UHGV virus genome: UHGV-0119120
Reading direction: 5' to 3' (one strand)
Length of the DNA: 34,560 nt
Origin: a virus
Made by a program: the position numbers and the translations under genes. The notes beneath the pieces are model-generated. The model saw nothing but the letters and a program-made list of their open reading frames with translations, did not search any database and was not told where the DNA came from. This document shows, one piece after another, positions 2,195 to 25,132 of the stretch. Position 1 is the first letter of the stretch; each line of letters begins with the position of its first letter.

Positions 2195-2548
2195 TTATGC
2201 CTCGCTTGTTACAGTCGTCTGGCCGTAGATTGTGTCAATGGAGGAAGTGAAGGTGACGCGACGGCTGGTGCCGTCATAATTGGTATCGAAGGAAAGAATC
2301 GACAGAACGCCCGGTGTATCCTGTATGCGTTCGCGTATGGCCAGGATGTAGACGTCAGAACGCTGCTTACCCAGCACTGACTGGACATACGGCGTGCCTT
2401 CCGTCAGATCGAGAAACCACTGACCGCGCCACAGCTCGAAACGGGTTTTTACGGCCTGGGCGACACATTCCGGACTGTCGATAAGGAAAGTATCGTCACC
2501 CTGGCCGAAAGTGTAATCGCCTTCAGTATCTTCGCGACGGTATCGCAT
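2195..2548 (-). CDS. small baseplate wedge protein (Mu gp46 / gpW-like)
   Basis: 117 aa ORF directly between the spike and the J-like gene; start overlaps the spike stop. Confidence 0.5.
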   Translation of the reverse strand: MRYRREDTEGDYTFGQGDDTFLIDSPECVAQAVKTRFELWRGQWFLDLTEGTPYVQSVLGKQRSDVYILAIRERIQDTPGVLSILSFDTNYDGTSRRVTFTSSIDTIYGQTTVTSEA

Positions 2549-3288
2549 TATTGCGGCCCTCCGGTAGTTCCCCCGCCAGTCTGTACTCCGCCATGTTTAT
2601 GCGTGGCGACACTGATACCAGAAGCTGTTACGTCATTCGTTACCGTCACCGGCCCAAGCATCGTCGCAGTACCGCCGCTTTCTCCCATTCCCTGAGACAG
2701 GTTACCGTTAATCGTTACGTTGCCGTTCAGCGTGATAGTCGGGGATGTGATTGTCGTTCCACCCTCAGCCGTAGCCGTGAGCTGGCCCGGTGTTTGAACG
2801 GTGATGTTATGTCCTGCGGCAACCTCTACGAACGCCGCACCATCATCGGTTCTCAGCTGCGCGGCGCTGGTACTGATACCGCTGATTTTCTGTGCTTGCG
2901 ACTGCGGGCCAACGATGGCGAACGCATCAGATAAGTCATGCTGGCGCGGGTCGACTGTCTCCTGAACGCCGCCGCTCTGCCACCAGAAATCGATGCAACG
3001 GTCGGCAAAGAGCAGCAGGCACTCGTCGCCTTCTTTTACCGGAAAGGTCAGCGTGCAACCGCCGCCGCGCGGGAAGATAACCGGCACATCCACCAGCGGT
3101 TTTAATTCGGTGGAGTCGTCGCCAACAATACCGCGAAGCGCCACCTCTACTGTGCAAGTAACAGCGTCAGGATCGAACGACTGAATGATGCCTGGAATCG
3201 CTACGCGCATCTGGGTAGACACCGAATCGGCAATGGCCTGCGCAGTCTGCTGCTCACCGCCGATCTGTGATTGAGTTGGAATTGGCAT
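2548..3288 (-). CDS. baseplate spike / central puncturing protein (Mu gp45 / P2 gpV-like)
   Basis: 246 aa; Gly/Thr-rich C-terminus (TTITSPTITLNGNVTINGNL...GGVQTGGGTTGG) typical of spike beta-structure; located downstream of the hub gene. Confidence 0.6.
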   Translation of the reverse strand: MPIPTQSQIGGEQQTAQAIADSVSTQMRVAIPGIIQSFDPDAVTCTVEVALRGIVGDDSTELKPLVDVPVIFPRGGGCTLTFPVKEGDECLLLFADRCIDFWWQSGGVQETVDPRQHDLSDAFAIVGPQSQAQKISGISTSAAQLRTDDGAAFVEVAAGHNITVQTPGQLTATAEGGTTITSPTITLNGNVTINGNLSQGMGESGGTATMLGPVTVTNDVTASGISVATHKHGGVQTGGGTTGGPQ

Positions 3289-3297
3289 AAAAACCCC

Positions 3298-3325
3298 ATA
3301 AAAAAAACCCGCTCGGAGGCGGGTT
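3298..3325 (-). terminator. rho-independent terminator after the moron cassette
   Basis: Minus-strand hairpin AACCCGC-CTCCGA-GCGGGTT followed by a run of 8-9 T, 38 nt downstream of the stop at 3363. Confidence 0.6.
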
Positions 3326-3362
3326 AGTGATCAAAGAATGGATTGAAGCAATTGGCTGTTAG

Positions 3363-3572
3363 TTAGCCACTCAACATTCGTTTGACGGCATCAAGGATTG
3401 CAGGAAGCGCAGGTATTAATTGAGCAAAAATAACCGCACCGACAACCCACATAATGATACTGTTCTTGGCGTTGCTGACGTCTTCTTTTGTGGCGTAATT
3501 TGATTTCATGACAGCCAAGTCTGTCTTGATAGACTGGACGTCTTTTTCAAGCTCCCTTACTCGCTGTTGCAT
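3363..3572 (-). CDS. small coiled-coil protein with C-terminal transmembrane helix (XhlA/holin-like architecture)
   Basis: Likely start MQQRVRELEKDV preceded by AGGAG with 8-nt spacer (the ORF-track start at 3665 is probably upstream of the true start). C-terminal hydrophobic segment IIMWVVGAVIFAQLIPALPAIL. Locally AT-rich. Confidence 0.45.
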   Translation of the reverse strand: MQQRVRELEKDVQSIKTDLAVMKSNYATKEDVSNAKNSIIMWVVGAVIFAQLIPALPAILDAVKRMLSG

Positions 3573-3645
3573 GTCATCGTCTCCTGTTGGTGGTTCGCCA
3601 CCCTCTCTTTTTCTGAGCGGCGGGAATCTCCCCATCGTTACGTTA

Positions 3646-4002
3646 TCAGTCTGCCTTTGAGCCACCGTCTCCCTCCTGATCTTCTATCCATTTAAGCACA
3701 GGGTAAACAGCGAAACTATGCACAAATCCGCAGTTGTTACATGGTAGCCTGTACTCATAATTATAAAGGGAGTGCGGAGGTCCACCGCCATCAACTTTCG
3801 AATAATTTAAAAAAGCCTGATGCCCAATAGGAGCCATAAGAGGAACACCAATGTCGTCACTGCCGCACACCTTACATGTTAAACCTTCAATTCCTCTTTC
3901 CACGAGAAAGCTGGAAAACTTATCCATCGTTACAACGGATAACATTTTCATTAATTCATTATCGAGATCTCTCTCTATTTGCTTTCTTGTTTCTTTGTCC
4001 AT
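3646..4002 (-). CDS. Cys-rich protein with two CxxC pairs (possible zinc ribbon), unknown function
   Basis: 118 aa ORF containing CKVCG and CNNCG about 40 residues apart; AT-rich; a TACAAT -10-like element lies upstream. Start codon uncertain. Confidence 0.4.
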   Translation of the reverse strand: MDKETRKQIERDLDNELMKMLSVVTMDKFSSFLVERGIEGLTCKVCGSDDIGVPLMAPIGHQAFLNYSKVDGGGPPHSLYNYEYRLPCNNCGFVHSFAVYPVLKWIEDQEGDGGSKAD

Positions 4003-4083
4003 GCGCCGAGCTCTATTGATGTTTCCCGCATTGTAACAGTGAAGAAAATCGAAATGGCACTGGTTTTTTGATCATGCGAAGAA

Positions 4084-4425
4084 TCACTTAACCTTCACGC
4101 AGTCGTATGTTGCATACTGACGTGGTGCATCCATATTTGCTTGCAGCCACTGAGCATTCAGGATTGCTTTACCATTACGGCCAATAAACTCCATTCCCAC
4201 CCATCGCCCAGGTTGATTTGTCGCTAAGCGCCATTCAATTTTGACGTTATTATAATCACCGTCATTTTTAAGAAATGTCACTTTTTGCGATTCAGGTTTA
4301 GCTCCGTTTACGCGAGCGAAACCATCATCAGCCCAATGGATTTTGAAATCACCACACTGAGAATCAGCAATAGCCTGGAAAGAAAATAATGCTGCAATGG
4401 TAAAAATTACGAGTTTCACGTCCCG
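4084..4425 (-). CDS. secreted/periplasmic protein with Sec signal peptide, unknown function
   Basis: GTG start preceded by GAGGT; N-terminus (V)KLVIFTIAALFSFQAIA|DSQ is a typical signal peptide with AxA cleavage site; two Cys in the mature part; AT-rich. The RBS overlaps the stop of the hub gene. Confidence 0.5.
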   Translation of the reverse strand, partial: RDVKLVIFTIAALFSFQAIADSQCGDFKIHWADDGFARVNGAKPESQKVTFLKNDGDYNNVKIEWRLATNQPGRWVGMEFIGRNGKAILNAQWLQANMDAPRQYATYDCVKVK

Positions 4426-4429
4426 TACC

Positions 4430-5494
4430 TCAGTAGTTTGTTTTTTGCATAGCACCAGCATTAACCAAATCACGACTGCCACGCGCAAAACACATCAAAT
4501 CCATGTACCACGCCTGACCTCTGGTGTCGCCAGTATAGTCGATAGCTTTGACGATATAAACGCCATCCGTCGCAATGCTGGCAGCCTGTGACGTCGTGCC
4601 GGTCAGCACACGGTTGCCGTTCTCTTCTGTTTCGGTGATACGCCCGGGCGACTGTGCTATTTCGCTATTGCCGAGCGTGGCGCGGTACACCGAAGCCTGA
4701 TCGAGCTGGATAAGACCATTAATACGGATGTTTGGGTTTATCAGGCACCGCACGTTTACTCCGCCGCCCATCGTTTGTTGCGGCATACCGATCAGGCCAG
4801 TATCGGCATTCAACACAATGGCTTCGTGAATATATTTATCCTCCGGCACCATCTGGACCTGACCATCCACCAGCTGCCATGTCGCTTTGCACTGCGCAGC
4901 AATATTATCCATCACGTTACGGGTGGATGAATAAATCGCACGGCCACGAGGAAACACGGTATCAGGAAAGTCACCGGTAATGCCCTGCGTCACGCCGAAC
5001 GCGTTGAAATCCTGCATAGTCGCCCGGTGCAGGTCCGCAACGGTATAACCAGCGGCAAGCGTGGTGATGGTAGTCGCGTAGAGGAACGCTTCGTGGTTAC
5101 TGATGGCCTGAATCAGCACCCAGGAATCGGTGATGTTGTCCTTCCCGGTGACGGTGAAGCGAATATCACCGTCAAATATCAGGCCGTAGTTCTGACCGTT
5201 CACCTGCCCTACCTGGTCTGGTGAAATCTCCCGGGCGACACCAACCTGGCTCGCATCAACATCCGGCGCAATACCGTCATACCCGGCAATGATGCGAATT
5301 TTTGCAAACTCCTGCCCCAGTATCTTGTTCGTGGTATCGGTCGAAAGGTTGTAAATTTTCACGTTTGCCACGCGCGGCCAGCGTGTATCTGCCCACTCGA
5401 TCTGGAACGTGACTTTAAAGTCAGACAGGGAAATACCCTGCCCGTTCTGGTCCAACAGCTGCAACTCAAAATGGCGCATCCAGTTAAGAGACAT
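4430..5494 (-). CDS. baseplate hub protein (Mu gp44 / P2 gpD-like)
   Basis: 354 aa ORF between the tape measure-proximal tail genes and the spike, in the position of the myophage hub. Confidence 0.5.
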   Translation of the reverse strand: MSLNWMRHFELQLLDQNGQGISLSDFKVTFQIEWADTRWPRVANVKIYNLSTDTTNKILGQEFAKIRIIAGYDGIAPDVDASQVGVAREISPDQVGQVNGQNYGLIFDGDIRFTVTGKDNITDSWVLIQAISNHEAFLYATTITTLAAGYTVADLHRATMQDFNAFGVTQGITGDFPDTVFPRGRAIYSSTRNVMDNIAAQCKATWQLVDGQVQMVPEDKYIHEAIVLNADTGLIGMPQQTMGGGVNVRCLINPNIRINGLIQLDQASVYRATLGNSEIAQSPGRITETEENGNRVLTGTTSQAASIATDGVYIVKAIDYTGDTRGQAWYMDLMCFARGSRDLVNAGAMQKTNY

Positions 5495-5496
5495 TT

Positions 5497-5802
5497 CTAC
5501 TCCTGTACGAAAATGAGGTGGCTGTATGTGCCGAGGTTGGTTTTGGTTGGCTCGTCCGGTGCGCCCACATCGCAGCCTACGAGCAGCGCCCCGTTAATAC
5601 CTAGTTGAGGATATTGCTCAAGAAGATTTACACCGGTTACCAGCGGCACACCAGAAAGAAGCGGTTCGCCACTGCTATCTTGTACATCCAGAATCCAGCC
5701 AGCAGAATCACGCCAAATGACTCTCAGCGTGTATGTTGTCTCTGCTAACTGAATGCGAAATAGCTGGTTATCCGGCGATAAAGGGATTTCAGTTACATTC
5801 AT
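5497..5802 (-). CDS. small tail/baseplate protein
   Basis: 101 aa ORF, tightly packed between the 208 aa tail protein and the hub gene. Confidence 0.4.
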   Translation of the reverse strand: MNVTEIPLSPDNQLFRIQLAETTYTLRVIWRDSAGWILDVQDSSGEPLLSGVPLVTGVNLLEQYPQLGINGALLVGCDVGAPDEPTKTNLGTYSHLIFVQE

Positions 5803-6425
5803 TGGATACCTATAGAGTTGCCAAGACTGGTTCCTTTTAGCCCATCAAACCACCCCGTTGACTTAATTACCGATTCATTTACCGGGGTGGTGGATTTAGT
5901 CCCGGAATTCTGCACCGCAGATGTACTAACACCATCCTGCATATCGGATTTATCAGCAACAGTGACATTTTTTGTCTGCGTTATGATGACCTCACGCAGG
6001 GTAAGCGTGCAGTTCAGCACGTTCTCGCTGGTTTTATCGGTAGTCACCTCAATGGCACGCACCAGCATATTGGTGTACACCCTCTTTCCGGTCACCACAT
6101 CGAACGGCACGCGCTCAAGCTGCATATCCAGCAGCTTTTGGTATGTCTCCTTAGGGCTAAGCCCAGCGCTAAGACCGATTGAAGATGTATCAATGAAGTC
6201 CAGCAACGAACCGCCACCAGCGAAGCCGCATTCCATTGTGACTTCGCTGGGACGCTTATACGCATGATCGGCGATGAAACCCGAGGCACTATTCGTTGTT
6301 GGCTTCTCCACCGGGTGCTCAGTAATTTCGAGCGCATCAGAATGCTTTTCGGAGACGACCACGCTGGGAATTAATATGCCAATTCGCCGGGATTGCTGGC
6401 GAAAAATCGCTGATAAAATATCCAT
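5799..6425 (-). CDS. tail protein downstream of tape measure (putative distal tail/baseplate component)
   Basis: 208 aa ORF; its start overlaps the tape measure stop. Confidence 0.4.
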   Translation of the reverse strand: MDILSAIFRQQSRRIGILIPSVVVSEKHSDALEITEHPVEKPTTNSASGFIADHAYKRPSEVTMECGFAGGGSLLDFIDTSSIGLSAGLSPKETYQKLLDMQLERVPFDVVTGKRVYTNMLVRAIEVTTDKTSENVLNCTLTLREVIITQTKNVTVADKSDMQDGVSTSAVQNSGTKSTTPVNESVIKSTGWFDGLKGTSLGNSIGIQ

Positions 6426-8440
6426 TATCTCGGTCCTGCGGGGAGTTGCTGGGTTAACTGTGAATTCACGCCCTTTTGACGGTCAACAGTCAAACGGGCA
6501 GCTTCGCGAGGATCGGAAACGCCGTGGATGTTAATATTCGTTTCCTGCTGAATCACCGGGGCGCTGGTGGGCATGTTGCTCATTACTTTCGGAATGTAGT
6601 TACGCGTTTCCTGCGGCATTAACCCCATGCCATAGCGCTTAACATTCCCGATCCCCCAGTTATATGATGCCAGTGCTTTGCTAAGGTCTCCGCCGTTCTG
6701 CCGCAACAGCTGGCTGAGGTACTTAGCTGCGGCCTGAGCTGACTTTTGCGGGTCGAATACATCGTTTCCGCGAAGGCCCATGTCGCGCGCCGTACCATCC
6801 ATAAACTGAAACAGACCTTTAGCGCCAGCGCCTGAAACGGCGAACTGATTACCGCCAGATTCCGTTATGGCCACACTGCGCAATAACCCCTCCGGAAGCC
6901 GGTAGAGCTGTTCCAGGTTGGTAAGCATCGGCTGCATCCATCCCAGCAGTTCAGAGCCTGCTTTGGTTGGCTGTGGCCGCTTAACTGACTGGCCGAGCTG
7001 TTCAGGCTCATCATCACCGAACCAGCCGCGCACCGTTCGGCCCACGCTGCGAGGATCGAATCCCCAGTGCTCTTTAATCCAGTCGGCGGTACCGTTGGCG
7101 CTGTCTGTTACCATCGGCATCGCTGACGGATTTTCGCTGCCCTGATTTAGCAGCTGTTTGCCTATACTAGCGGCCTGCGCCCAGTTGCCATCTTTTATGG
7201 CATTCAGCAAATCAGCGATCATGTTCAGCATCTTGCCGAACTCACCCATTTGCGAAATGAAGTTGCTAAAATCCCACTTTAGGGACCATGACTTGGGGTC
7301 AATACCGAGCAACTTAGCCAGCGCTTTTGTCAGGTCCGTAACAGTCTTTTTCAGGTCACCAATCATTTTGACGGCCTGATCAATTTCAGTCTTCCATTTC
7401 CCCCAGTCAATCAGGCTTTTGCCACCTTCTTTCCACGTCTGGTAATCATCCAAGAGCAGACCAAGTGCAATAATAAGCGTCGTTATCATGCCCAAGGGTG
7501 ATGACATGAAAGCGGTATTTAGCAGCCGCCATGCAACCAACAGCCCACTGAACAATGCGATAAGCTGCTGCGTGGCTGGGTTCAGCTTTTTGAACCAGGC
7601 GATCACACCCTCAACAGCTTGCCCAGTTCGCCATAACACGCGGGTAATCGCGTCACCTGCCCAGAGAATTCCTTTGATGATCTTCGTGATGACCGCTTCA
7701 ATCTTCGGCCAGTTGTCGAGTATCTGCCTGCGGAAGTTATCAATACTGCCAGCAAGGCCACCAGCTAGGTTAGAGCCAATCTTGTCTTTCGCCTGTCCAA
7801 GCGTCATCGTCAGATTACGCATGGAGGTCATGAAAATATTGGACTGTTTAGCCGCTGACTCAGCATTAAAACCAATACGCTTTGCCGTCAACGCGTACTC
7901 AGAACTGAGCTGCCCCATCCCTCTGCGCATCGCCATCAGCGTGTTTTCATCGATGCCAAGCATCTGCGCGTATTGTTTCGCGCGGTAATACGGCATGTTG
8001 TTGAGCTTTTGCCCAACGCCAGTAAAGATGGCCGCAGTATCACGCATCTTTCCGCTGGCATCGCGGGTCTGTACGCCCAGACGGTTCAGGAACCCTTCCG
8101 CCCCCGGATTGCTACGCATGAAACCAGCCAACCCTTCAAGAGAGGACATGGCCGACTCGGCGCTGGCACCGGTTTGCGATGCGGCATAGCCCAGCGCTTT
8201 GATGCCCTGGACGCTGGCCCCCGTCCGCTGGGATGCCCAGTAAATTTTATCCAGACCATTCGCGATCTGGGTGGTAAATCCGACAATGCTAAGCGCTGAG
8301 CCTTTCACCACCGCGCCGACCTTCAGAACGTTCGCGGTAACGCCTTTCAGCACGGCTTCAAACTTATTAGCGCCAGCCTGATCGATATCGAATCCCAGCG
8401 AAACAAGGAAATCTTTAATCGTATCTGCGTTACCGCTCAT
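6425..8440 (-). CDS. tail tape measure protein with C-terminal lytic transglycosylase (SLT) domain
   Basis: 671 aa; central hydrophobic/helical segments; C-terminal LPEGLLRSVAITESGGNQFAVSGAGAKGLFQFM...ASYNWGIGNV matches the SLT catalytic signature (ES...GLMQ-type, AYN motif). Confidence 0.8.
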   Translation of the reverse strand: MSGNADTIKDFLVSLGFDIDQAGANKFEAVLKGVTANVLKVGAVVKGSALSIVGFTTQIANGLDKIYWASQRTGASVQGIKALGYAASQTGASAESAMSSLEGLAGFMRSNPGAEGFLNRLGVQTRDASGKMRDTAAIFTGVGQKLNNMPYYRAKQYAQMLGIDENTLMAMRRGMGQLSSEYALTAKRIGFNAESAAKQSNIFMTSMRNLTMTLGQAKDKIGSNLAGGLAGSIDNFRRQILDNWPKIEAVITKIIKGILWAGDAITRVLWRTGQAVEGVIAWFKKLNPATQQLIALFSGLLVAWRLLNTAFMSSPLGMITTLIIALGLLLDDYQTWKEGGKSLIDWGKWKTEIDQAVKMIGDLKKTVTDLTKALAKLLGIDPKSWSLKWDFSNFISQMGEFGKMLNMIADLLNAIKDGNWAQAASIGKQLLNQGSENPSAMPMVTDSANGTADWIKEHWGFDPRSVGRTVRGWFGDDEPEQLGQSVKRPQPTKAGSELLGWMQPMLTNLEQLYRLPEGLLRSVAITESGGNQFAVSGAGAKGLFQFMDGTARDMGLRGNDVFDPQKSAQAAAKYLSQLLRQNGGDLSKALASYNWGIGNVKRYGMGLMPQETRNYIPKVMSNMPTSAPVIQQETNINIHGVSDPREAARLTVDRQKGVNSQLTQQLPAGPR

Positions 8441-14366: not shown

Positions 14367-14507
14367 CCGGTACAGGAATGCAAGGCTATTATTTAATCAC
14401 CTGAAATATAAGGATTTATTTGCAGTCTGATTTTGCGTGTAGTCCAAAAACTGCTCTGTGATGTATGGCGCTGAATGGGGTAAGTTACTCAATACCAGAT
14501 GTGACAT

Positions 14508-14756
14508 TTAGCGGCACATCATCCGGTAGCGCTCACCTGACGTTCTGGGATCCTCGAATTTTGATTCTAACTGGTGTACTGGCGGAGAATAGCAACCGCT
14601 GGAAACCATATTGGCGATATCTGCCGGGCTGCGGGGGTCGTCATACAGCATAATTAACGCTTCTGCGATTTCTTTGGTGCTAGCCTCCACGCTTAAAGGT
14701 TTAGTCTTAGCCATGACTTTCTCCAGTGCGATGATGCGTTTTATCCGTTCATTCAT
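14508..14756 (-). CDS. hypothetical small protein
   Basis: 82 aa ORF; its ATG overlaps the stop of the DUF5681-like gene (ATGAATGA). Confidence 0.35.
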   Translation of the reverse strand: MNERIKRIIALEKVMAKTKPLSVEASTKEIAEALIMLYDDPRSPADIANMVSSGCYSPPVHQLESKFEDPRTSGERYRMMCR

Positions 14757-15183
14757 TATGTTCTCCTTCCAGACGGGCTATGCGTTCTTCTAGCTCAGTT
14801 ATTTCAATGACTTTCATCATGCTGGCTAGCCCATCAAGTATAACCTTACCTTGATCTGCTGATAACGTCCCAGCGGCTATAGCTTTCATCACCGAACGGG
14901 CCAGCGACTGTGGGTCTGAGTCATCGAGATCAAAGGGCGTTGGAGGCAATATTGGTTTGCTTGGCGGGACAATGCGATCGAGGATGATTCTGCACGCTGC
15001 CATATCGCCTTTTCTGGCTTTTTTTAGAATGGCATCCGCTGCATCCTCCGCCCCCTCCGCCAGAAGGTTACGCAATTCAGTAGCTGTTTTTGGTCTACCT
15101 CCGGGATTCCCGCTATTCCCCTTAGCAAACTGGCCGCGCTTATTCCGTGTTACCTGTTTTTGCCTGTTCTCAGGTGCTGCCAT
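14749..15183 (-). CDS. DUF5681-like phage protein
   Basis: 144 aa; N-terminal KRGQFAKGNSGNPGGRPK motif characteristic of DUF5681; coiled-coil C-terminus. Confidence 0.5.
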   Translation of the reverse strand: MAAPENRQKQVTRNKRGQFAKGNSGNPGGRPKTATELRNLLAEGAEDAADAILKKARKGDMAACRIILDRIVPPSKPILPPTPFDLDDSDPQSLARSVMKAIAAGTLSADQGKVILDGLASMMKVIEITELEERIARLEGEHNE

Positions 15184-15228
15184 TATTAATCACCTTCAAT
15201 AAGTTACAGATCCTCTCATGGGTAGCTA

Positions 15229-15801
15229 TCACTCTCTCTCCAGATCCTCAAGAGAGCAGCAAATATGCTGTGTTGAAACAAAATAGCTCAGCATGCTGCT
15301 TACCTTGTTTGACGCGACGTAATTATAATGCTCGACCATCTTTGCTAACGCGATAATCTCCCACCAGTAATGCTTAACTAGCTTTAGCGAAATTAAATAA
15401 GCCCGGCTATAGAGCTTGTCGCAATCATCTCCTGTTGCGCCTTGGTTCCTGTATTGCTCAAGCACTTTCCGAATATCGCTGGCGTCTCCTTTCCCTCCAT
15501 TTTCCAGTAGTTTTTCAGGTGGTTCGCCTGAGTAAAGGTGTTGTGCCATTACGCCAGAAAAAGAGACGACCATCTGCGCCAGTTCATCTTTTCTGACGGG
15601 GAGATGTGAGCATACCGCCCGGCAATTATCGACCTCTTTGCCGTTAGCCAGTCGAGCAATACGAAACTCATCAGCAATAGATATCTCAATTTGCCTAGCA
15701 CCCGTAAACCACGCAGCCATCGCGTGACCGGCTTCATGGATCGCGATATTTCTGTCCCACATAGGGCTTTTGCTGAATTCAACAATTACGCCATCACTCA
15801 C
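15229..15801 (-). CDS. standalone zinc-metalloprotease domain protein, FtsH (peptidase M41)-like, no AAA+ module
   Basis: 190 aa; AIHEAGHAMAAW matches the FtsH catalytic HEAGHA zinc-binding motif; downstream KDELAQMVVSFSGVMAQHLYSG and GDASDIRKV parallel the FtsH SRQKLESQISTLYGGRLAEEIIYG and ASNDIKVAT segments. No Walker motifs. Confidence 0.5.
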   Translation of the reverse strand: MSDGVIVEFSKSPMWDRNIAIHEAGHAMAAWFTGARQIEISIADEFRIARLANGKEVDNCRAVCSHLPVRKDELAQMVVSFSGVMAQHLYSGEPPEKLLENGGKGDASDIRKVLEQYRNQGATGDDCDKLYSRAYLISLKLVKHYWWEIIALAKMVEHYNYVASNKVSSMLSYFVSTQHICCSLEDLERE

Positions 15802-15863
15802 GCTGCTTACTCTCCGTTAGATCTGTCATTTAGTTAAATTTAACTGCGTTGGGGGAGTCTCCA

Positions 15864-16040
15864 TCACACACTCCCTTCAACGGCCATTGATTCCAGCGCC
15901 TTAGCCACCAGCCCACGTGCAATTTGGTGGATAGACGGCGCTACGCCAATATCGGAGCGCTGGCGTTCGCGCTCCTGGATCTTGCAGATTGCGGCGAACT
16001 GGTCGCCAGAGAGTAATACCGGCTTAACGTTTGGCTTTTT
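15864..16040 (-). CDS. hypothetical small basic protein (possible DNA-binding)
   Basis: Likely start MKKPNVKPVLLSGDQ inside the 95 aa track ORF; overlaps the stop of the upstream 64 aa ORF. Confidence 0.3.
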   Translation of the reverse strand, partial: KKPNVKPVLLSGDQFAAICKIQERERQRSDIGVAPSIHQIARGLVAKALESMAVEGSV

Positions 16041-16218
16041 CATCCTGTTCACTCCAGAACTTTGCATTCGCTTCGTTGACTTTTTCCAGATTGCGGCATT
16101 CGTTGTTGAAGTTGTTACGCATCCGCAATTGCTCGGCCTGTTCACGGCCAAAGAGTTTACGCCCGGCGCTTTGCGGGTTTCCTGCTGCTAATTTTGGGTC
16201 ATAAATAGCCATGCTCAT
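16024..16218 (-). CDS. hypothetical small protein
   Basis: 64 aa ORF packed between the 187 aa gene and the next small ORF. Confidence 0.3.
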   Translation of the reverse strand: MSMAIYDPKLAAGNPQSAGRKLFGREQAEQLRMRNNFNNECRNLEKVNEANAKFWSEQDEKAKR

Positions 16219-16224
16219 TGCTCC

Positions 16225-16788
16225 TTACTTCGTGCGATGCCAGAAACTGGCGTTGTCGGTGTTAATGCTGCGAATGGCGTCGCCTGTGGAGAGAATCTTC
16301 GGTGAAACGTTGTTAACTCGCATGTAGTCGCCAACCTGCTCCAGAACGTCGATAGCCTGATCAAGCTGAATCTCTGATAGCGGGGTCGGATGTACCGCAC
16401 TGAATGCCTCAGCGGGTGCGTAACGCAGCACATCAAGCGCAACAAGGCGAGGATCGGTATCAGGAAGGGCATTGTCATACTTTGGCGCTACAGCGCGTAC
16501 CAGGCGCATAAATTCAGCGTCCATTGACGTTGGCGCGGTGGAGGTCGTGGAAGCGCCGCTGCCACTGCGAGTAATCATGTCACTATCGCGGGTGTACATC
16601 CGACGCAGGCGGTCGCCAGTTGCAATGCGTGTTGCACGTTCCTGCTTAAGCGTCGTTGCAAGATTCGCAATGACGAGAGCCACAGGAAGCGAGCAGGTCA
16701 GCCTTTCGAACGTATCATCGGAGTAAGTCACCTCGACGGTACCACCAGCGTTATCACTTTCCAGATTAACATTGGTTATCTGTTTCAT
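16225..16788 (-). CDS. hypothetical protein, first gene of the island accessory module
   Basis: 187 aa ORF with AAGG RBS; preceded by a palindromic operator-like region. Confidence 0.45.
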   Translation of the reverse strand: MKQITNVNLESDNAGGTVEVTYSDDTFERLTCSLPVALVIANLATTLKQERATRIATGDRLRRMYTRDSDMITRSGSGASTTSTAPTSMDAEFMRLVRAVAPKYDNALPDTDPRLVALDVLRYAPAEAFSAVHPTPLSEIQLDQAIDVLEQVGDYMRVNNVSPKILSTGDAIRSINTDNASFWHRTK

Positions 16789-16823
16789 TGTTCATAACCT
16801 TTTGCGTTGTTTAAATTCTAATC

Positions 16824-16840
16824 ATTGCATAAATTGCAAT
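16824..16840. promoter_or_regulatory. perfect 17-bp palindrome ATTGCATAAATTGCAAT (candidate operator)
   Basis: Read directly; lies about 40-60 bp upstream of the 187 aa gene start, with a related half-site ATCATTGCG at 16851-16859. Confidence 0.35.
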
Positions 16841-16938
16841 GTTAGTAAATATCATTGCGTATATTGAAATGATAAATCGACGTGATACTATGACGGTGAT
16901 CCACCATTGTGTGATTGCATAAACATGGTTAACAAAAG

Positions 16939-16973
16939 CCCTCGCCTCTCCAGCGCGGGCTTTTTCTTTTCCG
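16939..16973. terminator. hairpin with flanking T/A runs (candidate bidirectional terminator between origin and accessory operon)
   Basis: AGCCCTCGC-CTCTCCA-GCGCGGGCT stem-loop (8/9 bp) followed by TTTTTCTTTT on the plus strand and preceded by AAAA. Confidence 0.4.
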
Positions 16974-17072
16974 CTCCGCAAAGTTGCCGTTTCCGCATAC
17001 TGTCGCTTAGGCGATGCCCCTCCAAATTCGTAATTACTCTCCGAAAAAAACTCTATAGATAAACAAAAACAT

Positions 17073-17365
17073 GTTGGTTCAGTTGGTTCAGTTGGTTCAA
17101 TTTGTAAAGATTGTTGTTTTATAAGGATTATTTCTTTCGGAGTGAACCAACAAAGCCCCATTTTGAACCAACAAACGCTATTTTCGTGTTGGTTCAGTGG
17201 GAAAGATTTACAGGCCAGCCAGAAAAGGGCGTTGGTTCAATAGCGGCATTTGTTGGTTCAAAATGGGGCTTTGTTGGTTCGGTGTTGGTTCACTTACAAG
17301 CATGTAAATGCATTAAATACATACACTTATATTAATTAAATAGTTACTGAACCAACTGAACCAAC
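17073..17365. repeat. iteron array, putative origin of replication
   Basis: At least 11 copies of GTTGGTTCA / TGAACCAAC, including three tandem copies at 17073-17099. A 29-bp perfect inverted repeat GAACCAACAAAGCCCCATTTTGAACCAAC sits at 17145-17173 and 17252-17280, with an AT-rich stretch at about 17300-17345. Directly downstream of the primase-helicase stop. Confidence 0.6.
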
Positions 17366-17390
17366 AAAAAAACATCTCGTATGTGTGTTT

Positions 17391-20171
17391 TTATTCTTCA
17401 CCCTCTATCTCGTCGGGTCGTAGCTGGAGCACATAAACGTTTATCTGGCGTCCATCAATTCGCGGGGATTTACGCTGATACCCCCTTCCGCTGGCTGGCG
17501 GTTTCAGCACCCCAGCCCCGGCCAGCACACGGGCAAACTGTTTCGCGTTGAATCCCTTCGCAATCTCACCTTCGAATGCTGCCGGGAACGTGTAGAACAC
17601 TATCGGATCAGCATCATGCGCCCCTTTCTGACGGTACCCGGCCAAATCCCGAATCGGCATGTCAGCCGGGTCATAAGGGTAAGGTGCAAATCGGCTCAGT
17701 CCGTATGCATTAAGAAACGCCTCTGCCTGCTCGATGATCTGCTTATGCTCACGGTTCCCCGTGCCAAACTCTTTCACCCAGGCGTTAAAGCCATGCTGGA
17801 TGGCGTCCCGGCTTTCCTGCTCCCCCCAGCCAGTGACAGGCATCCCCAGCACCAGCGCCGCCTCCAGAATAGCGAACCGCTCGCCTACACGATGAACCTG
17901 TTCGCCATAATCAGCAGGGATAAGACTACGCCAGCGCTCCTGCGCCGCTTTGACAGCTTGTTTTGCCTCCTGCTGGTGGCCTGCAAGCCATTTAATCCAT
18001 TCACGGCCTGCGGCTCCGTGGTTCGTCTGGTAAGCCTCTTTGAGTGCGTCGGCGTGTTGCTTCCCGTTCTGGTACTCATGGTGCGTTACTGATTTCTCCA
18101 TCGGTAAATTAAGCAATCGCACCAGTTGCCCGGCCTTAACTTTCAGCCCACCAGCAGAAAGAAACGTCTCAATGTCCATTTCCCCGGTACTGATCGCCAC
18201 GGTGCGCCAGCGCTTTAACTCACGGTTGCCGCCCTCCTTGGCCCCCTGTAGCTTTCCGGCACCGTTAAACAGCGTGTAAGCAGACGTAGCAACGTCTTTG
18301 GCGCTACTGCCCTGCCCCACTTCATCCAGCGGTAACAGGCTGTCGTTATGCGCTTCCGCTTCGTTGGCGATACCCAGCGCTGTACCGTACCAGGTAAGGC
18401 GCAAGGCATCCGGTTCACCGTATAAACTGCTGGCAATGTTGGCGGTGGTTGTCTTCCCTGCGCTGGACTGCTCGAAAAGATGCACGCCGAACCCGTCAGC
18501 GCCAACAAGCCCGATCAGCGGCGCAGAAAGCGCAGCAGCAACACCCAGCATCATTGACGGGTTTCCCAGCGCAAGACGCGCCACCGAATCACGCCAGCTT
18601 TCCGGCGTTCCACTGACGGTATAGCCACCAGCCGCCGCACTCCGACCACTGAATAACAGCGGTATCTCTGGCTCACCAATAACATCACCATCCGGCATGA
18701 TGTACGCCCCGTTGTGCCAGCCTGTGGTGTGGCTGATCTGCCATTCCTTGCCGCTACCAGTTCGCTGCAGCCAGTCGGCCAGAATTGCCCGCAACGATGG
18801 TTTGGTTGTCACACTGACACCGCCGTTTTTCAGCGTGCGCCATCCCTCACGGTCGCCAATGTCCTCCCATGGAAGCGCACGGGTAACTTGCCCCCGGTTG
18901 CCGGGGACGTCCCAACGCAGGATCAGAAAGCGCTGTCTGGCGTTATCACTCCCCGCACCAGCAATCTCCAGCGGAGAGCATAGCCACGCCTCGGTATTGA
19001 TAATTTCTCCTGTGTCTTTGTCCACTTTCGGGGTGATCCAGTGAATGCCATCCGCACGGCTCTCTACTCGCGGTTTCAGATCGTCGTCGATACCAAGTTT
19101 TTTCTTGCCGCCGTCGATAGCTGTCAGTGTCGCACCCACTTTCTTACCCTCCGGTTGATACATTGAGTCGTTAAATGCTGCTGTGGCCGCTTCGAGGCCG
19201 TATTGCTGGTGGTAGTCGTTCCAGTCCGCTTTATAGTCCACTGGTGGCATGGAAACCCAGCCAGAAACGGCTTTCGCGGCTTTCTCTGCGGCCTCCTTGC
19301 CAGTGTTAACTTTCACTCCTTTAATTCCGTCACTTTCGCCCATCTGGTCGTTATCTGCGGCAATGATGATTTGTGCCTGTGGGTACTTCCGGCGCATCAC
19401 TTCGGCAACGGGTAGCAGGTTGCCCGCGTCAATTGCTGCCACTGCCAGCGCGTCCGGGCGCATCAGGTGAACTGAAAGGGCCGTCGCCAGCCCCTCGGCA
19501 ATTAAAACGCTCTGCGGCGATTCTGGCGCGTTTACGGCATGATATGCCCCGCGCTTTGCTGAACCTGTCAGGAGTCGCTTCTCTCCCTGCGGTGTAATGG
19601 TTTGCGCTGCTGCCACTGCGCCGGATTCGTCCACCAGCTCCAGCAATAACGAACCATCAGGCATAACCGGATAGTTAAACCCGGTCAGCCCTTTTGATTG
19701 CAGGTAATCAGATTCGCCCTGTGTGGCACTCTGGCGCATTCCGGCATACAGACGGGCAAACGTAGCCCTTCGCTGCTCTGCGTCCCCTGCTGCCTGTTTC
19801 TGGCGCTCCTGCTCACGCTGCTGGCGGTCAGCTTCCAGTTGCTCCCTTCTATGGCTCGCTGCCACCGGGTCGGATTGCGCTGCCAGGTAATCAATACCCA
19901 GCACGTCAGCGGCAAGCTGTGCCGCCTCCGTAGTGTCGCAGTTGTTAACCCGCTTGATTAAATCCAGCCCGTCACCAGCGCCACACTGGTTGCAGATAAA
20001 GCTACCGCGCCCGTTGTCGTCGAATCTGAAACGGTCTTTTCCACCACATGCAGGGCATGGAGAATGGCGGCGCGATGAATCAGGCACGTCGATAGACAAC
20101 CCAGCCAGCACATAAGGCCAGCGCCCTGCTGCGGCGCTGGTCACTTCGCGGATAAGGTCGATATTACGCAT
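17391..20171 (-). CDS. primase-helicase (zinc ribbon + Toprim primase + P-loop NTPase)
   Basis: Likely start MRNIDLI with AGGAGG RBS. N-terminal CPACGGKDRFRF...CNQCG zinc ribbon; Toprim-like acidic motifs (LIAEGLATA, IIIAADNDQMGE); Walker A-like SSAGKTT. Confidence 0.8.
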   Translation of the reverse strand: MRNIDLIREVTSAAAGRWPYVLAGLSIDVPDSSRRHSPCPACGGKDRFRFDDNGRGSFICNQCGAGDGLDLIKRVNNCDTTEAAQLAADVLGIDYLAAQSDPVAASHRREQLEADRQQREQERQKQAAGDAEQRRATFARLYAGMRQSATQGESDYLQSKGLTGFNYPVMPDGSLLLELVDESGAVAAAQTITPQGEKRLLTGSAKRGAYHAVNAPESPQSVLIAEGLATALSVHLMRPDALAVAAIDAGNLLPVAEVMRRKYPQAQIIIAADNDQMGESDGIKGVKVNTGKEAAEKAAKAVSGWVSMPPVDYKADWNDYHQQYGLEAATAAFNDSMYQPEGKKVGATLTAIDGGKKKLGIDDDLKPRVESRADGIHWITPKVDKDTGEIINTEAWLCSPLEIAGAGSDNARQRFLILRWDVPGNRGQVTRALPWEDIGDREGWRTLKNGGVSVTTKPSLRAILADWLQRTGSGKEWQISHTTGWHNGAYIMPDGDVIGEPEIPLLFSGRSAAAGGYTVSGTPESWRDSVARLALGNPSMMLGVAAALSAPLIGLVGADGFGVHLFEQSSAGKTTTANIASSLYGEPDALRLTWYGTALGIANEAEAHNDSLLPLDEVGQGSSAKDVATSAYTLFNGAGKLQGAKEGGNRELKRWRTVAISTGEMDIETFLSAGGLKVKAGQLVRLLNLPMEKSVTHHEYQNGKQHADALKEAYQTNHGAAGREWIKWLAGHQQEAKQAVKAAQERWRSLIPADYGEQVHRVGERFAILEAALVLGMPVTGWGEQESRDAIQHGFNAWVKEFGTGNREHKQIIEQAEAFLNAYGLSRFAPYPYDPADMPIRDLAGYRQKGAHDADPIVFYTFPAAFEGEIAKGFNAKQFARVLAGAGVLKPPASGRGYQRKSPRIDGRQINVYVLQLRPDEIEGEE

Positions 20172-20505
20172 GGTTGCCTCCTGCCACGGTCGCGCCCATA
20201 TCATTAATCATGCTTTGCCATATCTCGCGCCCGACGTCAGTCAATCCGTCCTTAGTGACGCAACGATCAAGAAGCTCGATCCCCACGGTTTCCCACTGCG
20301 GGTAGAACACTTTCATGGCTGCCAGTGTGTAGCTATCGATCAGGCTGCGAACGCCTTTTACTCCATTGACGATTTCCACACGGACGGCGAGGCCGTCCGC
20401 ATCAACCATGAAATAGTCCCCGCCGCTGGTGGCGGTAATGTGGTTATACAGTGCCGACGCATACTTATTCGCCAGCGCATTCAGTCGGAAATTTTTAGTA
20501 ATCAT
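20164..20505 (-). CDS. hypothetical protein (replication operon)
   Basis: 113 aa ORF; stop overlaps the primase start (ATGCGTAA). Confidence 0.4.
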   Translation of the reverse strand: MITKNFRLNALANKYASALYNHITATSGGDYFMVDADGLAVRVEIVNGVKGVRSLIDSYTLAAMKVFYPQWETVGIELLDRCVTKDGLTDVGREIWQSMINDMGATVAGGNHA

Positions 20506-20514
20506 GTCGCCCCC

Positions 20515-21141
20515 TCAGTGCGCCAGCGGCATTTCAGGCCAGCCGTTTTCATCCAGTTCAGCTATAAAGCTGTTGTGAAGTTCAGCAAGCGTTTCACGCC
20601 CGAACGGGGTCAGCTCGCCGCGCTCCGTGTCGATCATGGCCTGATAAAAAACAATGGCGTTCGCTGTTCCCTGCTCAACGCCGTAGCGCTCAATCATTGC
20701 GCCCTCGATGTTGTTCGCCATCGCCAGCCGTTCAGCAAACGGGTAAACCACCATGCCCGCATTACCATTGGAGTAAATCGCCACCTGCGATGATGTGCCG
20801 TCAGCCTCAGTAACCGTGGTGGTGCCGTTCTCGCGCTTCATCTCAGAAACGAACGTCGCAGCAATCAGCCAGCGCCACATAGTGACGTTATGCTGCGCGG
20901 TGAAGTCGAACCAGCCACGCTCCCCGCCGTCAGCCACTGCCAAATGCAGGGCAAATCCTTCATCGGTCTTATTGTCATACTCACCCGCATCCAGACGTAC
21001 TACGACTTTTTCGTAGTTGATAAGAGCAACATGCTCATACATTCCGGCATCATTGCGGGTCATGATATTGACGCCGTGCGGTGTGGCTTCGGCGTGGAAC
21101 AGGTCGGGATTTCCCGGTTTAATGGTCAGTATATTGCTCAT
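20515..21141 (-). CDS. hypothetical protein (replication operon)
   Basis: 208 aa ORF, tightly packed in the operon. Confidence 0.45.
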   Translation of the reverse strand: MSNILTIKPGNPDLFHAEATPHGVNIMTRNDAGMYEHVALINYEKVVVRLDAGEYDNKTDEGFALHLAVADGGERGWFDFTAQHNVTMWRWLIAATFVSEMKRENGTTTVTEADGTSSQVAIYSNGNAGMVVYPFAERLAMANNIEGAMIERYGVEQGTANAIVFYQAMIDTERGELTPFGRETLAELHNSFIAELDENGWPEMPLAH

Positions 21142-21359
21142 GCTTTGCCCTCCCGATATTCACGCATTACATGGTCAGCTAGCTTGCTTTCAGCCTCGCT
21201 CATTGCTTCGGGCACACCGTGTAACAGCGTCAGAATGGAACCTATAAGGCGTGGTAAATCGGGATCTGTTTTATTGGTGGTGCTCTCCAGCCACATGGAC
21301 AAAACAGCCTGTGCCTGTTCAATCTGGCAGGCAGCATCAATCAGTTGTAACTGGCTCAT
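21138..21359 (-). CDS. hypothetical small protein
   Basis: 73 aa ORF with 4-nt overlaps to neighbours. Confidence 0.35.
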   Translation of the reverse strand: MSQLQLIDAACQIEQAQAVLSMWLESTTNKTDPDLPRLIGSILTLLHGVPEAMSEAESKLADHVMREYREGKA

Positions 21360-25115: not shown

Positions 25116-25132
25116 GTCTATCGCTCTGGATC

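What the first reader, a model, noticed from the sequence alone, without database searches (positions are those of the whole stretch)
3298..4425. AT-rich three-gene moron with its own terminator inside the baseplate module
Between the hub and spike genes sit a signal-peptide protein (coupled to the hub stop), a Cys-rich CxxC...CxxC protein and a 69 aa coiled-coil membrane protein, followed by a strong intrinsic terminator. The base composition differs from the flanking tail genes. Such morons often encode lysogenic-conversion, exclusion or toxin/immunity functions; a membrane-protein plus zinc-ribbon pair could be an abortive-infection or lysis accessory module.
Basis: partly seen in the sequence, partly recalled or inferred. 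Interest (0 to 1): 0.6.

Follow-up and report, generated by a model that had tools for sequence, protein, structure and literature searches.

The report
Two-gene cargo in prophage baseplate slot
Between the baseplate hub and spike genes of this prophage lies a cargo slot that holds different accessory genes in related phages. Here it carries an uncharacterised gene pair (a small zinc-ribbon protein plus a membrane-anchored protein) that in other prophages sits right behind the repressor, so it probably protects the lysogen against other phages.

Summary
The three ORFs, the low G+C and the terminator are real, but the unit is drawn wrongly. All genes are on the minus strand.

- **g1 (4084-4419):** a secreted 8-stranded beta-barrel protein. 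It directly follows the hub gene in every SEN34-like relative examined, so it is a fixed part of the backbone, not cargo.
- **Terminator (3298-3325):** it precedes the spike gene in all 16 relatives whatever the cargo, with compensatory stem changes. It is also a backbone feature.
- **g2+g3 (3363-4002):** only these are variable cargo. Relatives carry Phd/Doc, DUF4236, an EACC1 protein and others in the same place.
- **g2:** a 118-aa protein with four invariant Cys and no known fold relative.
- **g3:** 100 aa, not 69. It starts at a GTG with an AGGAGG Shine-Dalgarno, overlaps g2 by 20 nt, and has a short coiled coil and a C-terminal membrane anchor.

The same pair recurs behind CI or Mnt repressors, next to integrases and in other tail-module moron zones. 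The best reading is a prophage-expressed phage-exclusion or abortive-infection module. This rests on genomic position only. No known defence family matches.

The parts
4430..5494 (-). Baseplate hub gene (354 aa); upstream boundary of the slot
   Evidence: phrog_196 baseplate hub E 9.6e-84; Pfam E217_GP41 E 7.5e-6, just below the curated cut-off
4084..4419 (-). g1: a 111-aa secreted protein with a Sec signal peptide, two invariant Cys and a predicted 8-stranded up-and-down beta-barrel. It is a constant gene of the backbone, translationally coupled to the hub gene.
4058..4075 (-). Conserved upstream block ATGATCAAAAAACCAGTG in the g1-g2 spacer. Its CCAGTG half forms an imperfect inverted repeat with CACTGT next to the -10 element. 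Possible regulatory site.
   Evidence: Conserved in the five slot cassettes while neighbouring spacer bases vary. A GATCAGT core is also present upstream of the pair in siphophage contexts. Function not tested.
4030..4038 (-). Candidate extended -10 promoter element TGTTACAAT, 27 nt upstream of the g2 ATG; no good -35
   Evidence: TG(T/C)TACAAT is kept in 4 of 5 cassette copies at the same distance (27-29 nt) from the ATG. The generic sigma-70 scan did not find it, and promoter-like hits in the region are not above the shuffle expectation.
3646..4002 (-). g2: a 118-aa acidic cytoplasmic protein with two N-terminal helices, a four-Cys zinc-ribbon-like beta unit and a C-terminal helix. First gene of the cargo operon.
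3363..3665 (-). g3: a 100-aa tail-anchored membrane protein with a disordered Gly/Pro/acidic N-terminus, a coiled coil of about three heptads (about residues 35-56) and a C-terminal TM (about 69-90). It overlaps g2 by 20 nt.
   Evidence: GTG with AGGAGG 6 nt upstream. Start and N-terminal codons are conserved. The family is widespread in gamma- and beta-proteobacteria, with the motif KTD.AV.KSNYATK.DVS.AKNSII.WVV. phrog_6324 and phrog_3556 E about 1e-11. Only sub-threshold XhlA-like signals.
3298..3325 (-). Intrinsic terminator (7-bp stem, 6-nt loop, T8), ending 10 nt before the spike ATG. A conserved backbone feature that closes the slot.
   Evidence: A hairpin plus T-run is present 10-25 nt upstream of the spike start in all 16 relatives, with compensatory stem variants CCCGC/GCGGG, CCAGC/GCTGG and CCCAC/GTGGG.
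2548..3288 (-). Baseplate spike gene (246 aa); downstream boundary of the slot
   Evidence: Pfam PF18352 N-terminal domain E 6e-41 and GpV Apex motif E 6e-9

Best explanation
The hub-spike junction of this SEN34-like (lambdoid, contractile-tailed) prophage is a cargo slot with two fixed borders.

**Fixed borders.** One border is g1, a constant secreted beta-barrel gene made from the late transcript together with the hub. The other is an intrinsic terminator 10 nt before the spike gene.

**Cargo here.** Between the borders this phage carries a mobile two-gene operon. g2 is a cytoplasmic four-Cys zinc-ribbon protein. g3 is a 100-aa inner-membrane protein held by a C-terminal anchor, with a short cytoplasmic coiled coil. 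The two genes overlap by 20 nt.

**Inferred expression.** In the lysogen the pair is transcribed from its own extended -10 promoter, and the terminator keeps that transcription out of the spike gene. During lytic growth the antiterminated late transcript reads through the terminator.

**Inferred function.** The pair is a prophage-expressed phage-exclusion module. g3 is the membrane effector; it either blocks DNA entry at the inner membrane or permeabilises the membrane after infection. g2 is its cytoplasmic partner, acting as sensor or restraint, and probably docks on the g3 N-terminal tail.

**What is shown and what is inferred.** The gene anatomy, the variability of the slot, the mobility of the pair and its positions in other prophages are shown. 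Promoter use, lysogen expression, membrane topology, the g2-g3 contact and the anti-phage effect are inferred. I put the anatomy at about 0.85 and the exclusion or abortive-infection function at about 0.45; the overall confidence of 0.5 is for the whole statement.
For: **The slot is variable.**
- The same hub-g1...terminator-spike frame holds other cargo in relatives: an opposite-strand EACC1-domain protein, a DUF4236 protein, Phd/Doc, a 53-aa ORF, a 210-aa phrog_1349 protein, and unrelated 138-188-aa proteins in SEN34, Mulock, vB_EcoM-683R1 and ST340-VIM1phi10.1.
- g2+g3 occupy the slot in several Enterobacterales lineages: Jejubacter, Klebsiella michiganensis/aerogenes, E. coli, Citrobacter, Cronobacter and Trabulsiella.

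**g2 and g3 form one operon.**
- In every copy g2 is followed by a coiled-coil protein with a C-terminal TM. The overlap is 8-20 nt wherever the long start was called.

**The pair sits at positions expressed from the prophage.**
- Directly behind an S24 CI repressor (L028).
- Behind Mnt in the immI region of Providencia P22-like prophages, with a 4-nt mnt/g2 overlap (L040/41). This is the region where P22 carries sieA (PMC2629481, PMC10883804).
- Next to integrases at prophage ends (L030 and L032).
- In siphophage pre-tape-measure moron zones with Arc and Ant genes.
- g3 with a second partner type (phrog_5893) lies behind CI in epsilon34, Pantoea and Yersinia prophages. The epsilon34 authors placed genes 44/45 in the repressor operon, 'like rexA and rexB' (PMC2629481).

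**Composition and transcription signals.**
- Low G+C.
- A conserved TG(T/C)TACAAT upstream of g2.
- A conserved terminator.
- SEN34-type phages have lambda-like regulatory regions (PMC5261728). This makes Q-type read-through plausible.

**Hint of a g2-g3 contact.**
- The g3 N-terminal motif tracks the partner type. DN(V/I)..FP goes with g2-type partners and (K/R)(H/Y)GGGNGGG with phrog_5893 partners.
Against: - The promoter is only an extended -10-like match without a -35. The K. michiganensis copy has TACACT. The generic promoter scan shows no enrichment over shuffles.
- In this window the pair lies on the late-operon strand just after g1. It could therefore be made only late in infection.
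- g3 has positive residues on both sides of its TM, so its topology is not settled from sequence.
- The argument from position shows when the genes are likely expressed. It does not show what they do.
Confidence: 0.5

Rival explanations
1. g2+g3 are a membrane toxin/antitoxin-type addiction pair. They stabilise the prophage, or simply persist selfishly, and have no role against other phages. g3 is a small membrane toxin and the upstream, overlapping g2 is its neutraliser.
For: The gene order and overlap resemble type II TA operons. A Phd/Doc pair occupies the same slot in E. coli ABWA45. The pair is highly mobile between unrelated phages.
Against: No similarity to any TA family. The recurrent placement inside repressor operons is typical of exclusion genes. 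The two roles are not exclusive, because many TA pairs act as abortive-infection systems.
Confidence: 0.15
2. g3 is an XhlA-like lysis accessory protein, with g2 as its regulator. It acts late in infection to help holin or endolysin disrupt the envelope.
For: g3 has the XhlA architecture: an N-terminal coiled coil and a C-terminal TM. It gives weak hits to phrog_1193 'hemolysin' (E 4e-4). One family member hits Pfam XhlA at 7.7e-6, and two homologues carry the source names XhlA or DUF1640. In this window the pair lies in the late-operon orientation.
Against: The window protein does not reach any XhlA threshold. The pair is absent from most relatives, which lyse without it. It is never seen next to lysis genes in the loci examined; in L010 the lysis gene lies elsewhere. 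Operons headed by CI or Mnt are expressed in lysogens, where a lysis factor would be harmful.
Confidence: 0.1
3. The cargo is a lysogenic-conversion function unrelated to phages. For example, a tail-anchored stress or ribosome-associated membrane protein in the manner of ElaB/YqjD (my recollection of those E. coli proteins) that changes host physiology.
For: The size and architecture match: about 100 aa, an N-terminal coiled coil and a C-terminal anchor. The positions that point to lysogen expression fit any conversion gene.
Against: No DUF883/ElaB hit in Pfam. The obligatory pairing with a dedicated partner gene and the diversity of partners are more typical of conflict systems. Other cargo in the same slot is conflict-associated: Phd/Doc and EACC1.
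Confidence: 0.15
4. One reading: all three genes plus the terminator form one imported three-gene moron.
For: g1 is also low in G+C (42.3%, GC3 0.35), like g2 and g3. g1 homologues are below the hub and spike genes in G+C in all eight relatives with a hub value.
Against: g1 is present directly after the hub in every relative examined, down to 31% identity, while the downstream cargo changes. The terminator is present with every cargo type. The homology break between the window and its E. coli relatives lies after g1 and before the terminator.
Confidence: 0.08
5. One or more of the three proteins are baseplate or tail-assembly components.
For: They lie inside the baseplate gene block. g1 shows strict synteny and translational coupling with the hub gene.
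Against: g1 has a cleavable Sec signal peptide. In L015 the g1 domain is fused behind a lipoprotein signal (LLVSGC), so it works outside the cytoplasm, where tails are not assembled. g2+g3 are missing from most relatives.
Confidence: 0.04

Closest known systems
Morons of lambdoid phages (for example HK97 gene 15, and lambda lom and bor; concept of Juhala, Hendrix and colleagues; reviewed in PMC3594210)
   Same: Extra genes inserted between two structural genes of the late operon. They are absent from close relatives, differ in base composition, are bounded downstream by an intrinsic terminator and have a candidate promoter of their own. From my own knowledge, HK97 gp15 is a tail-module moron that encodes an inner-membrane superinfection-exclusion protein.
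   Different: Here the terminator and the first small gene (g1) are permanent fixtures of the insertion site and do not travel with the cargo. The promoter has not been shown. The proteins are unrelated to gp15, Lom or Bor.
Lambda RexA/RexB, and epsilon34 genes 45/44
   Same: A two-gene unit made of a soluble protein plus a membrane protein. Homologous pairs sit immediately downstream of, and co-oriented with, the CI-type repressor. The epsilon34 authors made the rexAB comparison for genes 44/45 (PMC2629481). Epsilon34 gp44 is a g3 homologue.
   Different: No sequence or profile similarity to RexA or RexB (PADLOC negative). RexB is polytopic (my knowledge), whereas g3 has a single C-terminal TM. 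The copy in this window lies in the tail module, not the immunity region. Epsilon34 gp45 (phrog_5893) is a different partner from g2 (phrog_4293).
P22 SieA in the immI/'ant moron' region
   Same: In Providencia P22-like prophages the g2-g3 pair lies in an operon with mnt, between the ejection-protein gene and arc/ant. This is the region that holds sieA in P22 (PMC2629481, PMC10883804). [quoted passage not shown]
   Different: SieA is a single 162-164-aa protein with three predicted TM segments and works alone (PMC10883804). g3 has one TM and always comes with a partner. There is no homology.
XhlA (PF10779) / DUF1640-type tail-anchored coiled-coil proteins
   Same: The same architecture and size. 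There are weak profile signals, and two homologues carry those names in UniRef.
   Different: The window protein is below every curated threshold. XhlA genes accompany holin and endolysin genes (my knowledge), and this pair does not.
Defence hotspots in P2-like prophages and P4-like satellites (Rousset et al., bioRxiv 10.1101/2021.01.21.427644)
   Same: A fixed locus between conserved phage genes where many unrelated accessory or defence cassettes replace each other.
   Different: A different phage lineage (SEN34-like lambdoid myophage) and a different locus (hub-spike). I found no description of this hotspot. Only some of its cargo belongs to recognisable conflict families: Phd/Doc and EACC1.

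Membership tests
Moron (independent accessory transcription unit inside a phage operon) | Present in some but not all closely related phages at the same position | tested here: met
   Met for g2+g3: relatives carry at least 9 other cargo types between g1 and the terminator. Not met for g1, which is always present.
Moron (independent accessory transcription unit inside a phage operon) | Own promoter upstream of the inserted genes | tested here: inconclusive
   A conserved extended -10-like TG(T/C)TACAAT lies 27-29 nt upstream of the ATG in 4 of 5 copies. There is no -35, it was not picked up by the consensus scan, and no transcript data are available.
Moron (independent accessory transcription unit inside a phage operon) | Terminator downstream of the inserted genes | tested here: met
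   The terminator is at 3298-3325. It belongs to the site, not to the cassette: it is present in all 16 relatives.
Moron (independent accessory transcription unit inside a phage operon) | Base composition different from neighbouring phage genes | tested here: met
   G+C is 42-47.5% against 50-58%. The segment is the lowest 1-kb stretch of the structural module.
RexAB-type two-gene abortive-infection system | Sequence or profile homology to RexA/RexB | tested here: not met
   No PADLOC, Pfam or NCBIfam hit for g2 or g3, or for their homologues.
RexAB-type two-gene abortive-infection system | Located downstream of, and co-transcribed with, the prophage repressor | tested here: inconclusive
   True for homologous pairs (L028, L016-L022, epsilon34). 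Not true for the copy in this window.
RexAB-type two-gene abortive-infection system | Infection-triggered membrane depolarisation and phage exclusion | not testable with these tools
   Needs infection assays.
XhlA (Pfam PF10779) | Score above the Pfam gathering threshold | tested here: not met
   No XhlA hit for the window protein at E up to 0.1. Only 1 of 30 family members hits, at 7.7e-6.
Zinc ribbon | Two CxxC knuckles on beta-hairpins, with all four Cys conserved | tested here: met
Type II toxin-antitoxin | Homology to a known toxin or antitoxin family; toxicity that the partner neutralises | tested here: not met
   Homology is absent. Toxicity and neutralisation cannot be tested here.
Periplasmic lysozyme/transglycosylase inhibitors (MliC/PliC, Ivy) - considered for g1 | Family homology or a specific fold match, and co-occurrence with a tail muralytic domain | tested here: not met
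Cor/Llp-type receptor-blocking lipoproteins - considered for g1 | Lipobox with an acylated Cys | tested here: not met
   The window g1 has an AxA signal-peptidase I site and no lipobox. Only the L015 fusion variant has LLVSGC.

The most novel reading that the evidence does not exclude
The zinc-ribbon protein (phrog_4293) plus the tail-anchored coiled-coil membrane protein form a previously unrecognised two-component phage-exclusion system. It is widespread in gamma- and beta-proteobacterial prophages. The membrane protein is a common effector that also pairs with a second, unrelated partner (phrog_5893, as in epsilon34 gp45/gp44). It would fill the RexAB/SieA niche behind CI and Mnt repressors. 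The hub-spike junction of SEN34-like prophages would then be an undescribed defence hotspot, with g1 as a separate periplasmic exclusion factor.
Probability: 0.35. Interest if true: 0.65.

Novelty: new variant of a known kind. Interest (0 to 1): 0.45.

Why it matters
- **A new place to look for prophage accessory and defence genes.** The hub-g1...terminator-spike frame is easy to recognise, and at least ten different cargoes were seen here.
- **A testable candidate exclusion system.** The gene pair is 0.7 kb and has no annotation in Pfam, NCBIfam or PADLOC. Its genomic positions in several unrelated phage types all point to expression from the prophage. If confirmed, it would give a function to epsilon34 genes 44/45, which have been orphans since 2008, and to hundreds of 'hypothetical' prophage genes.
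- **An annotation fix.** Public records call g3 as 69, 90 or 100 aa. The 100-aa form is the one supported here.
- **If the pair has no phage phenotype,** the finding is an ordinary moron.

Tried and rejected
- **Known-family searches for g1, g2, g3 and their homologues:** nothing above threshold in Pfam, NCBIfam or PADLOC; PHROGs matches only families of unknown function, plus weak 'hemolysin'/'lipoprotein' hits for g3.
- **PDB by sequence profile:** only generic coiled-coil matches for g3, noise for g2, and nanobody noise for g1.
- **Fold searches:**
  - The AlphaFold-database library was not available.
- **g1 as an inhibitor of the tape-measure SLT domain (a Spackle-like idea):** rejected as unsupported. 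g1 is kept in relatives whose tape-measure protein has no SLT domain, and no lysozyme-inhibitor fold match was found.
- **g1 as a lipoprotein:** there is no lipobox in this copy.
- **Generic sigma-70 and terminator scan:** promoter-like hits are not above the shuffle expectation. Only the 3306-3325 terminator is convincing.
- **Literature searches:** I looked for the pair, for SEN34 slot genes, for tail-anchored prophage defence proteins and for baseplate hotspots. Nothing specific turned up. One search failed on syntax.
- **att repeats and tRNA for the nested element at 14.4-26.8 kb:** none convincing.
- **The 69-aa start for g3:** rejected in favour of the GTG at 3665.
Full report
**1. What is in the sequence**

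All relevant genes are on the minus strand. In transcription order the genes are:
- a tape-measure protein with a C-terminal SLT domain (6425-8440);
- a Dit-like protein (5799-6425);
- a baseplate plug (5497-5802);
- the baseplate hub (4430-5494);
- three small ORFs;
- a Gp138/V-type spike with Apex motif (2548-3288);
- W-like, J-like and DUF2612 baseplate genes.

The three ORFs are as follows.

- **g1, 4084-4419, 111 aa.** Its GTG lies 10 nt after the hub TGA, and a GAGG overlaps that stop codon. The product starts with a Sec signal peptide (MKLVIFTIAALFSFQAIA|DS).
- **g2, 3646-4002, 118 aa.** It is acidic, with Cys at 43, 46, 88 and 91.
- **g3, 3363-3665.**
  - The GTG at 3665 has AGGAGG 6 nt upstream and overlaps the end of g2 by 20 nt.
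  - That GTG and its Shine-Dalgarno are invariant in five copies of the cassette. The 31 extra codons differ between copies mostly at third positions.
  - The extra residues carry a motif (DNV..G.FP, then a Gly/Pro/Asp-rich run ending in DM) shared with distant homologues.
  - g3 is therefore 100 aa. Public records call it 69, 90, 99 or 100 aa.

A 7-bp hairpin with a 6-nt loop and T8 lies at 3298-3325, ending 10 nt before the spike ATG.

The stretch 3363-4419 has 43.5% G+C against a window mean of 52.2%. That is the lowest 0.26% of windows of the same length, and the minimum of the whole structural module. GC3 is 0.35 for g1, 0.39 for g2 and 0.49 for g3, against 0.49-0.62 in the neighbouring genes.

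**2. The unit is not three genes plus their own terminator**

Megablast of 3200-4600 against complete E. coli genomes found 42 genomes. All of those listed match only the flanks; none covers 80% of the query. I examined the annotation or sequence of eight E. coli prophages, Salmonella phage SEN34, Klebsiella phages Mulock and ST340-VIM1phi10.1, Escherichia phage vB_EcoM-683R1, and prophages of Jejubacter, Klebsiella and others. They all show the same frame: hub, then a g1 homologue directly after it, then something variable, then the spike.

g1 is kept down to 31-34% protein identity. It is therefore a fixed gene of this tail module, not cargo.

The terminator is fixed too. In all 16 loci a hairpin plus T-run lies 10-25 nt upstream of the spike start codon, whatever the cargo. 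The stems differ by compensatory changes (CCCGC/GCGGG, CCAGC/GCTGG, CCCAC/GTGGG), which argues for selection on the structure. The homology break between the window and its E. coli relatives lies just after the g1 stop and just before the terminator.

Cargo seen between these borders:
- g2+g3 (this window and several other lineages);
- an opposite-strand EACC1-domain protein;
- an opposite-strand DUF4236 protein;
- Phd/Doc with its own palindromic promoter region;
- a 53-aa ORF;
- a 210-aa phrog_1349 protein;
- unrelated proteins of 138, 148, 170 and 188 aa, the last with an HExxH motif.

The hub-spike junction is thus a cargo hotspot with fixed borders. I found no description of it in the literature.

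**3. The cargo: g2 and g3 travel together**

*g2.* It belongs to phrog_4293.
- An exhaustive profile search found only 58 representative clusters, almost all 108-166 aa.
- The four Cys are invariant across 37 aligned members, and Y84 and W105 are nearly so.
- The AlphaFold2 model is confident (pLDDT 86.7). It shows two N-terminal helices, a zinc-ribbon-like beta unit and a C-terminal helix.

*g3.* It belongs to a larger family found across gamma- and beta-proteobacteria.
- The core is sharply conserved: DM..RV..LE.D...KTD.AV.KSNYATK.DVS.AKNSII.WVV.A..AQ..P.
- It has about three heptads of coiled coil, around residues 35-56.
- One hydrophobic segment near the C-terminus has KD19 of 2.16 at residues 69-87.
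- Only sub-threshold XhlA- or DUF1640-like signals were seen.

In every locus where I found a g2 homologue, the next gene is a protein of the g3 type: a Gly-rich N-terminus, a coiled coil and a C-terminal TM. The overlap is 8-20 nt wherever the long start was called. The overlap, the constant order and the joint mobility show that this is a two-gene operon.

**4. Where else the pair lives**

This is the main functional evidence.

- **Behind a CI repressor.** In L028 the pair starts 28 nt after an S24 CI-type repressor gene, on the same strand. In Pandoraea, a g3 homologue lies behind two S24 repressor genes, with an uncalled CxxC ORF just upstream.
- **Behind Mnt.** In Providencia P22-like prophages the order is arc/ant on one strand and mnt-g2-g3 on the other, with a 4-nt mnt/g2 overlap, next to the ejection-protein gene. 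This is the immI/'ant moron' region, where P22 carries mnt and sieA (PMC2629481; PMC10883804). From established knowledge, Mnt is a maintenance repressor made by the prophage.
- **Next to integrases.** In L030 and L032 the pair lies beside the integrase at the prophage edge.
- **In siphophage tail modules.** In Salmonella phages SPN3UB, 29485, S107 and others, in Klebsiella phages, and in L029, it lies in a zone with Arc and antirepressor genes just upstream of the tape-measure gene.
- **In a Chromobacterium prophage early region**.
- **With a second partner.** g3 also pairs with an unrelated partner, phrog_5893, directly behind CI in epsilon34 (gp45/gp44) and in Pantoea and Yersinia prophages. 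[quoted passage not shown] **5. How it most likely works**

*Shown:* the anatomy, the variability of the slot, the mobility of the pair and its positional associations.

*Inferred:*
- In the lysogen, g2-g3 are transcribed from a promoter in the 81-nt g1-g2 spacer. TG(T/C)TACAAT is kept 27-29 nt upstream of the ATG in 4 of 5 cassettes while nearby bases drift. An upstream block, ATGATCAAAAAACCAGTG, is also conserved.
- The backbone terminator then shields the spike and downstream baseplate genes. Only 10 nt separate the T-run from the spike ATG, so there is no room for a promoter. Late transcription must therefore read through the terminator. That fits the lambda-like regulatory region reported for SEN34 (PMC5261728) and the classical moron model (PMC3594210).
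- g3 would sit in the inner membrane with its coiled coil in the cytoplasm and act as the effector. It would either block DNA entry (as SieA does) or permeabilise the membrane after infection (as Rex does).
- g2 would be the cytoplasmic partner, acting as sensor or restraint.
- One hint of direct contact: the g3 N-terminal tail tracks the partner type. DN(V/I)..FP goes with g2-type partners and (K/R)(H/Y)GGGNGGG with phrog_5893 partners.

I rate the anatomy at about 0.85 and the exclusion or abortive-infection function at about 0.45. The main rivals are a pure addiction module, an XhlA-like lysis accessory, a conversion function unrelated to phages, and a structural role. They are set out separately with their evidence.

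**6. g1**

- More than 127 homologues were found, all in Enterobacterales and all of similar size, with two invariant Cys.
- AlphaFold2 (pLDDT 84) gives an 8-stranded up-and-down barrel.
- In L015 the g1 domain is fused behind a lipoprotein signal and an extra domain. This supports a location outside the cytoplasm.
- Because it is exported, it is unlikely to be a tail part. Because it is always coupled to the hub gene, it is probably made late in infection.
- I tested the idea that it inhibits the SLT domain of the tape-measure protein. g1 is kept in relatives that lack that domain, so the idea is not supported.
- A role in blocking superinfection or protecting progeny at the envelope is a guess. 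Its function remains open.

**7. Comparison with known systems, and novelty**

As a kind of element this is a moron in a hotspot, which is well known. Three things are unusual:
- the slot has permanent borders, one a conserved secreted-protein gene and the other a conserved terminator;
- the hotspot does not appear to have been described;
- the cargo pair belongs to no annotated family, yet repeatedly occupies the RexAB and SieA positions of other prophages.

It is not a member of the RexAB, SieA, XhlA or any TA family by sequence. The resemblance is one of position and architecture only.

I class it as a new variant of a known kind and give it moderate interest (0.45). It is a clean, cheap-to-test candidate for a new prophage exclusion system, but no phenotype is known.

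Noticed in passing
window 14400-26800: A block of about 12 kb sits between prophage head genes: DUF2213 and portal on one side, a 160-aa head protein and the major capsid gene on the other. It carries a P4-alpha-like primase/helicase (17391-20204), a complete Arm-type tyrosine integrase (25488-26717), a truncated second integrase-like ORF (21788-22759) and an HExxH protein (15229-15801). It looks like a satellite or integrative element nested inside the head module. No tRNA and no convincing flanking direct repeats were found.
   Followed up: partly
window 22900-22987 (minus strand): Rfam C4 antisense RNA (RF01695), 75 bits against a gathering score of 45, full length, inside the nested element. 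C4 RNAs control antirepressor expression in P1/P7-type immunity regions.
   Followed up: no
L015 5027-5917: In one relative the g1 position holds a 296-aa protein with a lipoprotein signal (LLVSGC), an extra N-terminal domain and a C-terminal g1 domain, followed by the same g2-g3 pair.
   Followed up: partly
L001 3305-3655; L003 3148-3968; L027 3611-4177; L026 3333-3845: Other cargo in the same hub-spike slot: an EACC1 (Effector Associated Constant Component 1) protein in E. coli E89, Phd/Doc in E. coli ABWA45, a 188-aa HExxH protein in Klebsiella phage ST340-VIM1phi10.1, and a 170-aa protein with an RNNLFH (Rx4H-like) motif in vB_EcoM-683R1. The HExxH protein shares its HEAGH region with the window ORF 15229-15801 (pairwise E 3e-4 over 26 residues only).
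   Followed up: partly
window 4030-4075 (minus strand): The conserved block AACCAGTG and the sequence CACTGTT abutting the -10-like element form an imperfect inverted repeat that brackets the would-be promoter spacer. This could be an operator.
   Followed up: no
window 6425-8440; L009 1553-3601; L011 1681-3600: The tape-measure protein of this phage and of L014 carries a C-terminal SLT lytic-transglycosylase domain (E 1e-24). The tape-measure proteins of the Jejubacter and K. michiganensis relatives, whose tails are otherwise syntenic, have no detectable SLT domain.
   Followed up: partly
window 3363-3665 and public records: Gene callers disagree on g3: 69 aa (many NCBI E. coli and Serratia records; one such sequence is on 206 contigs), 90 aa (JGI/IMG, including a 34,560-nt contig that is probably this window) and 99-100 aa.
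   Followed up: yes
L023 3740-4000: In Pandoraea pnomenusa an uncalled ORF with a C...H and a CPVCG motif lies between the second S24 repressor gene and the g3 homologue. It is probably a missed, divergent g2-type partner.
   Followed up: no
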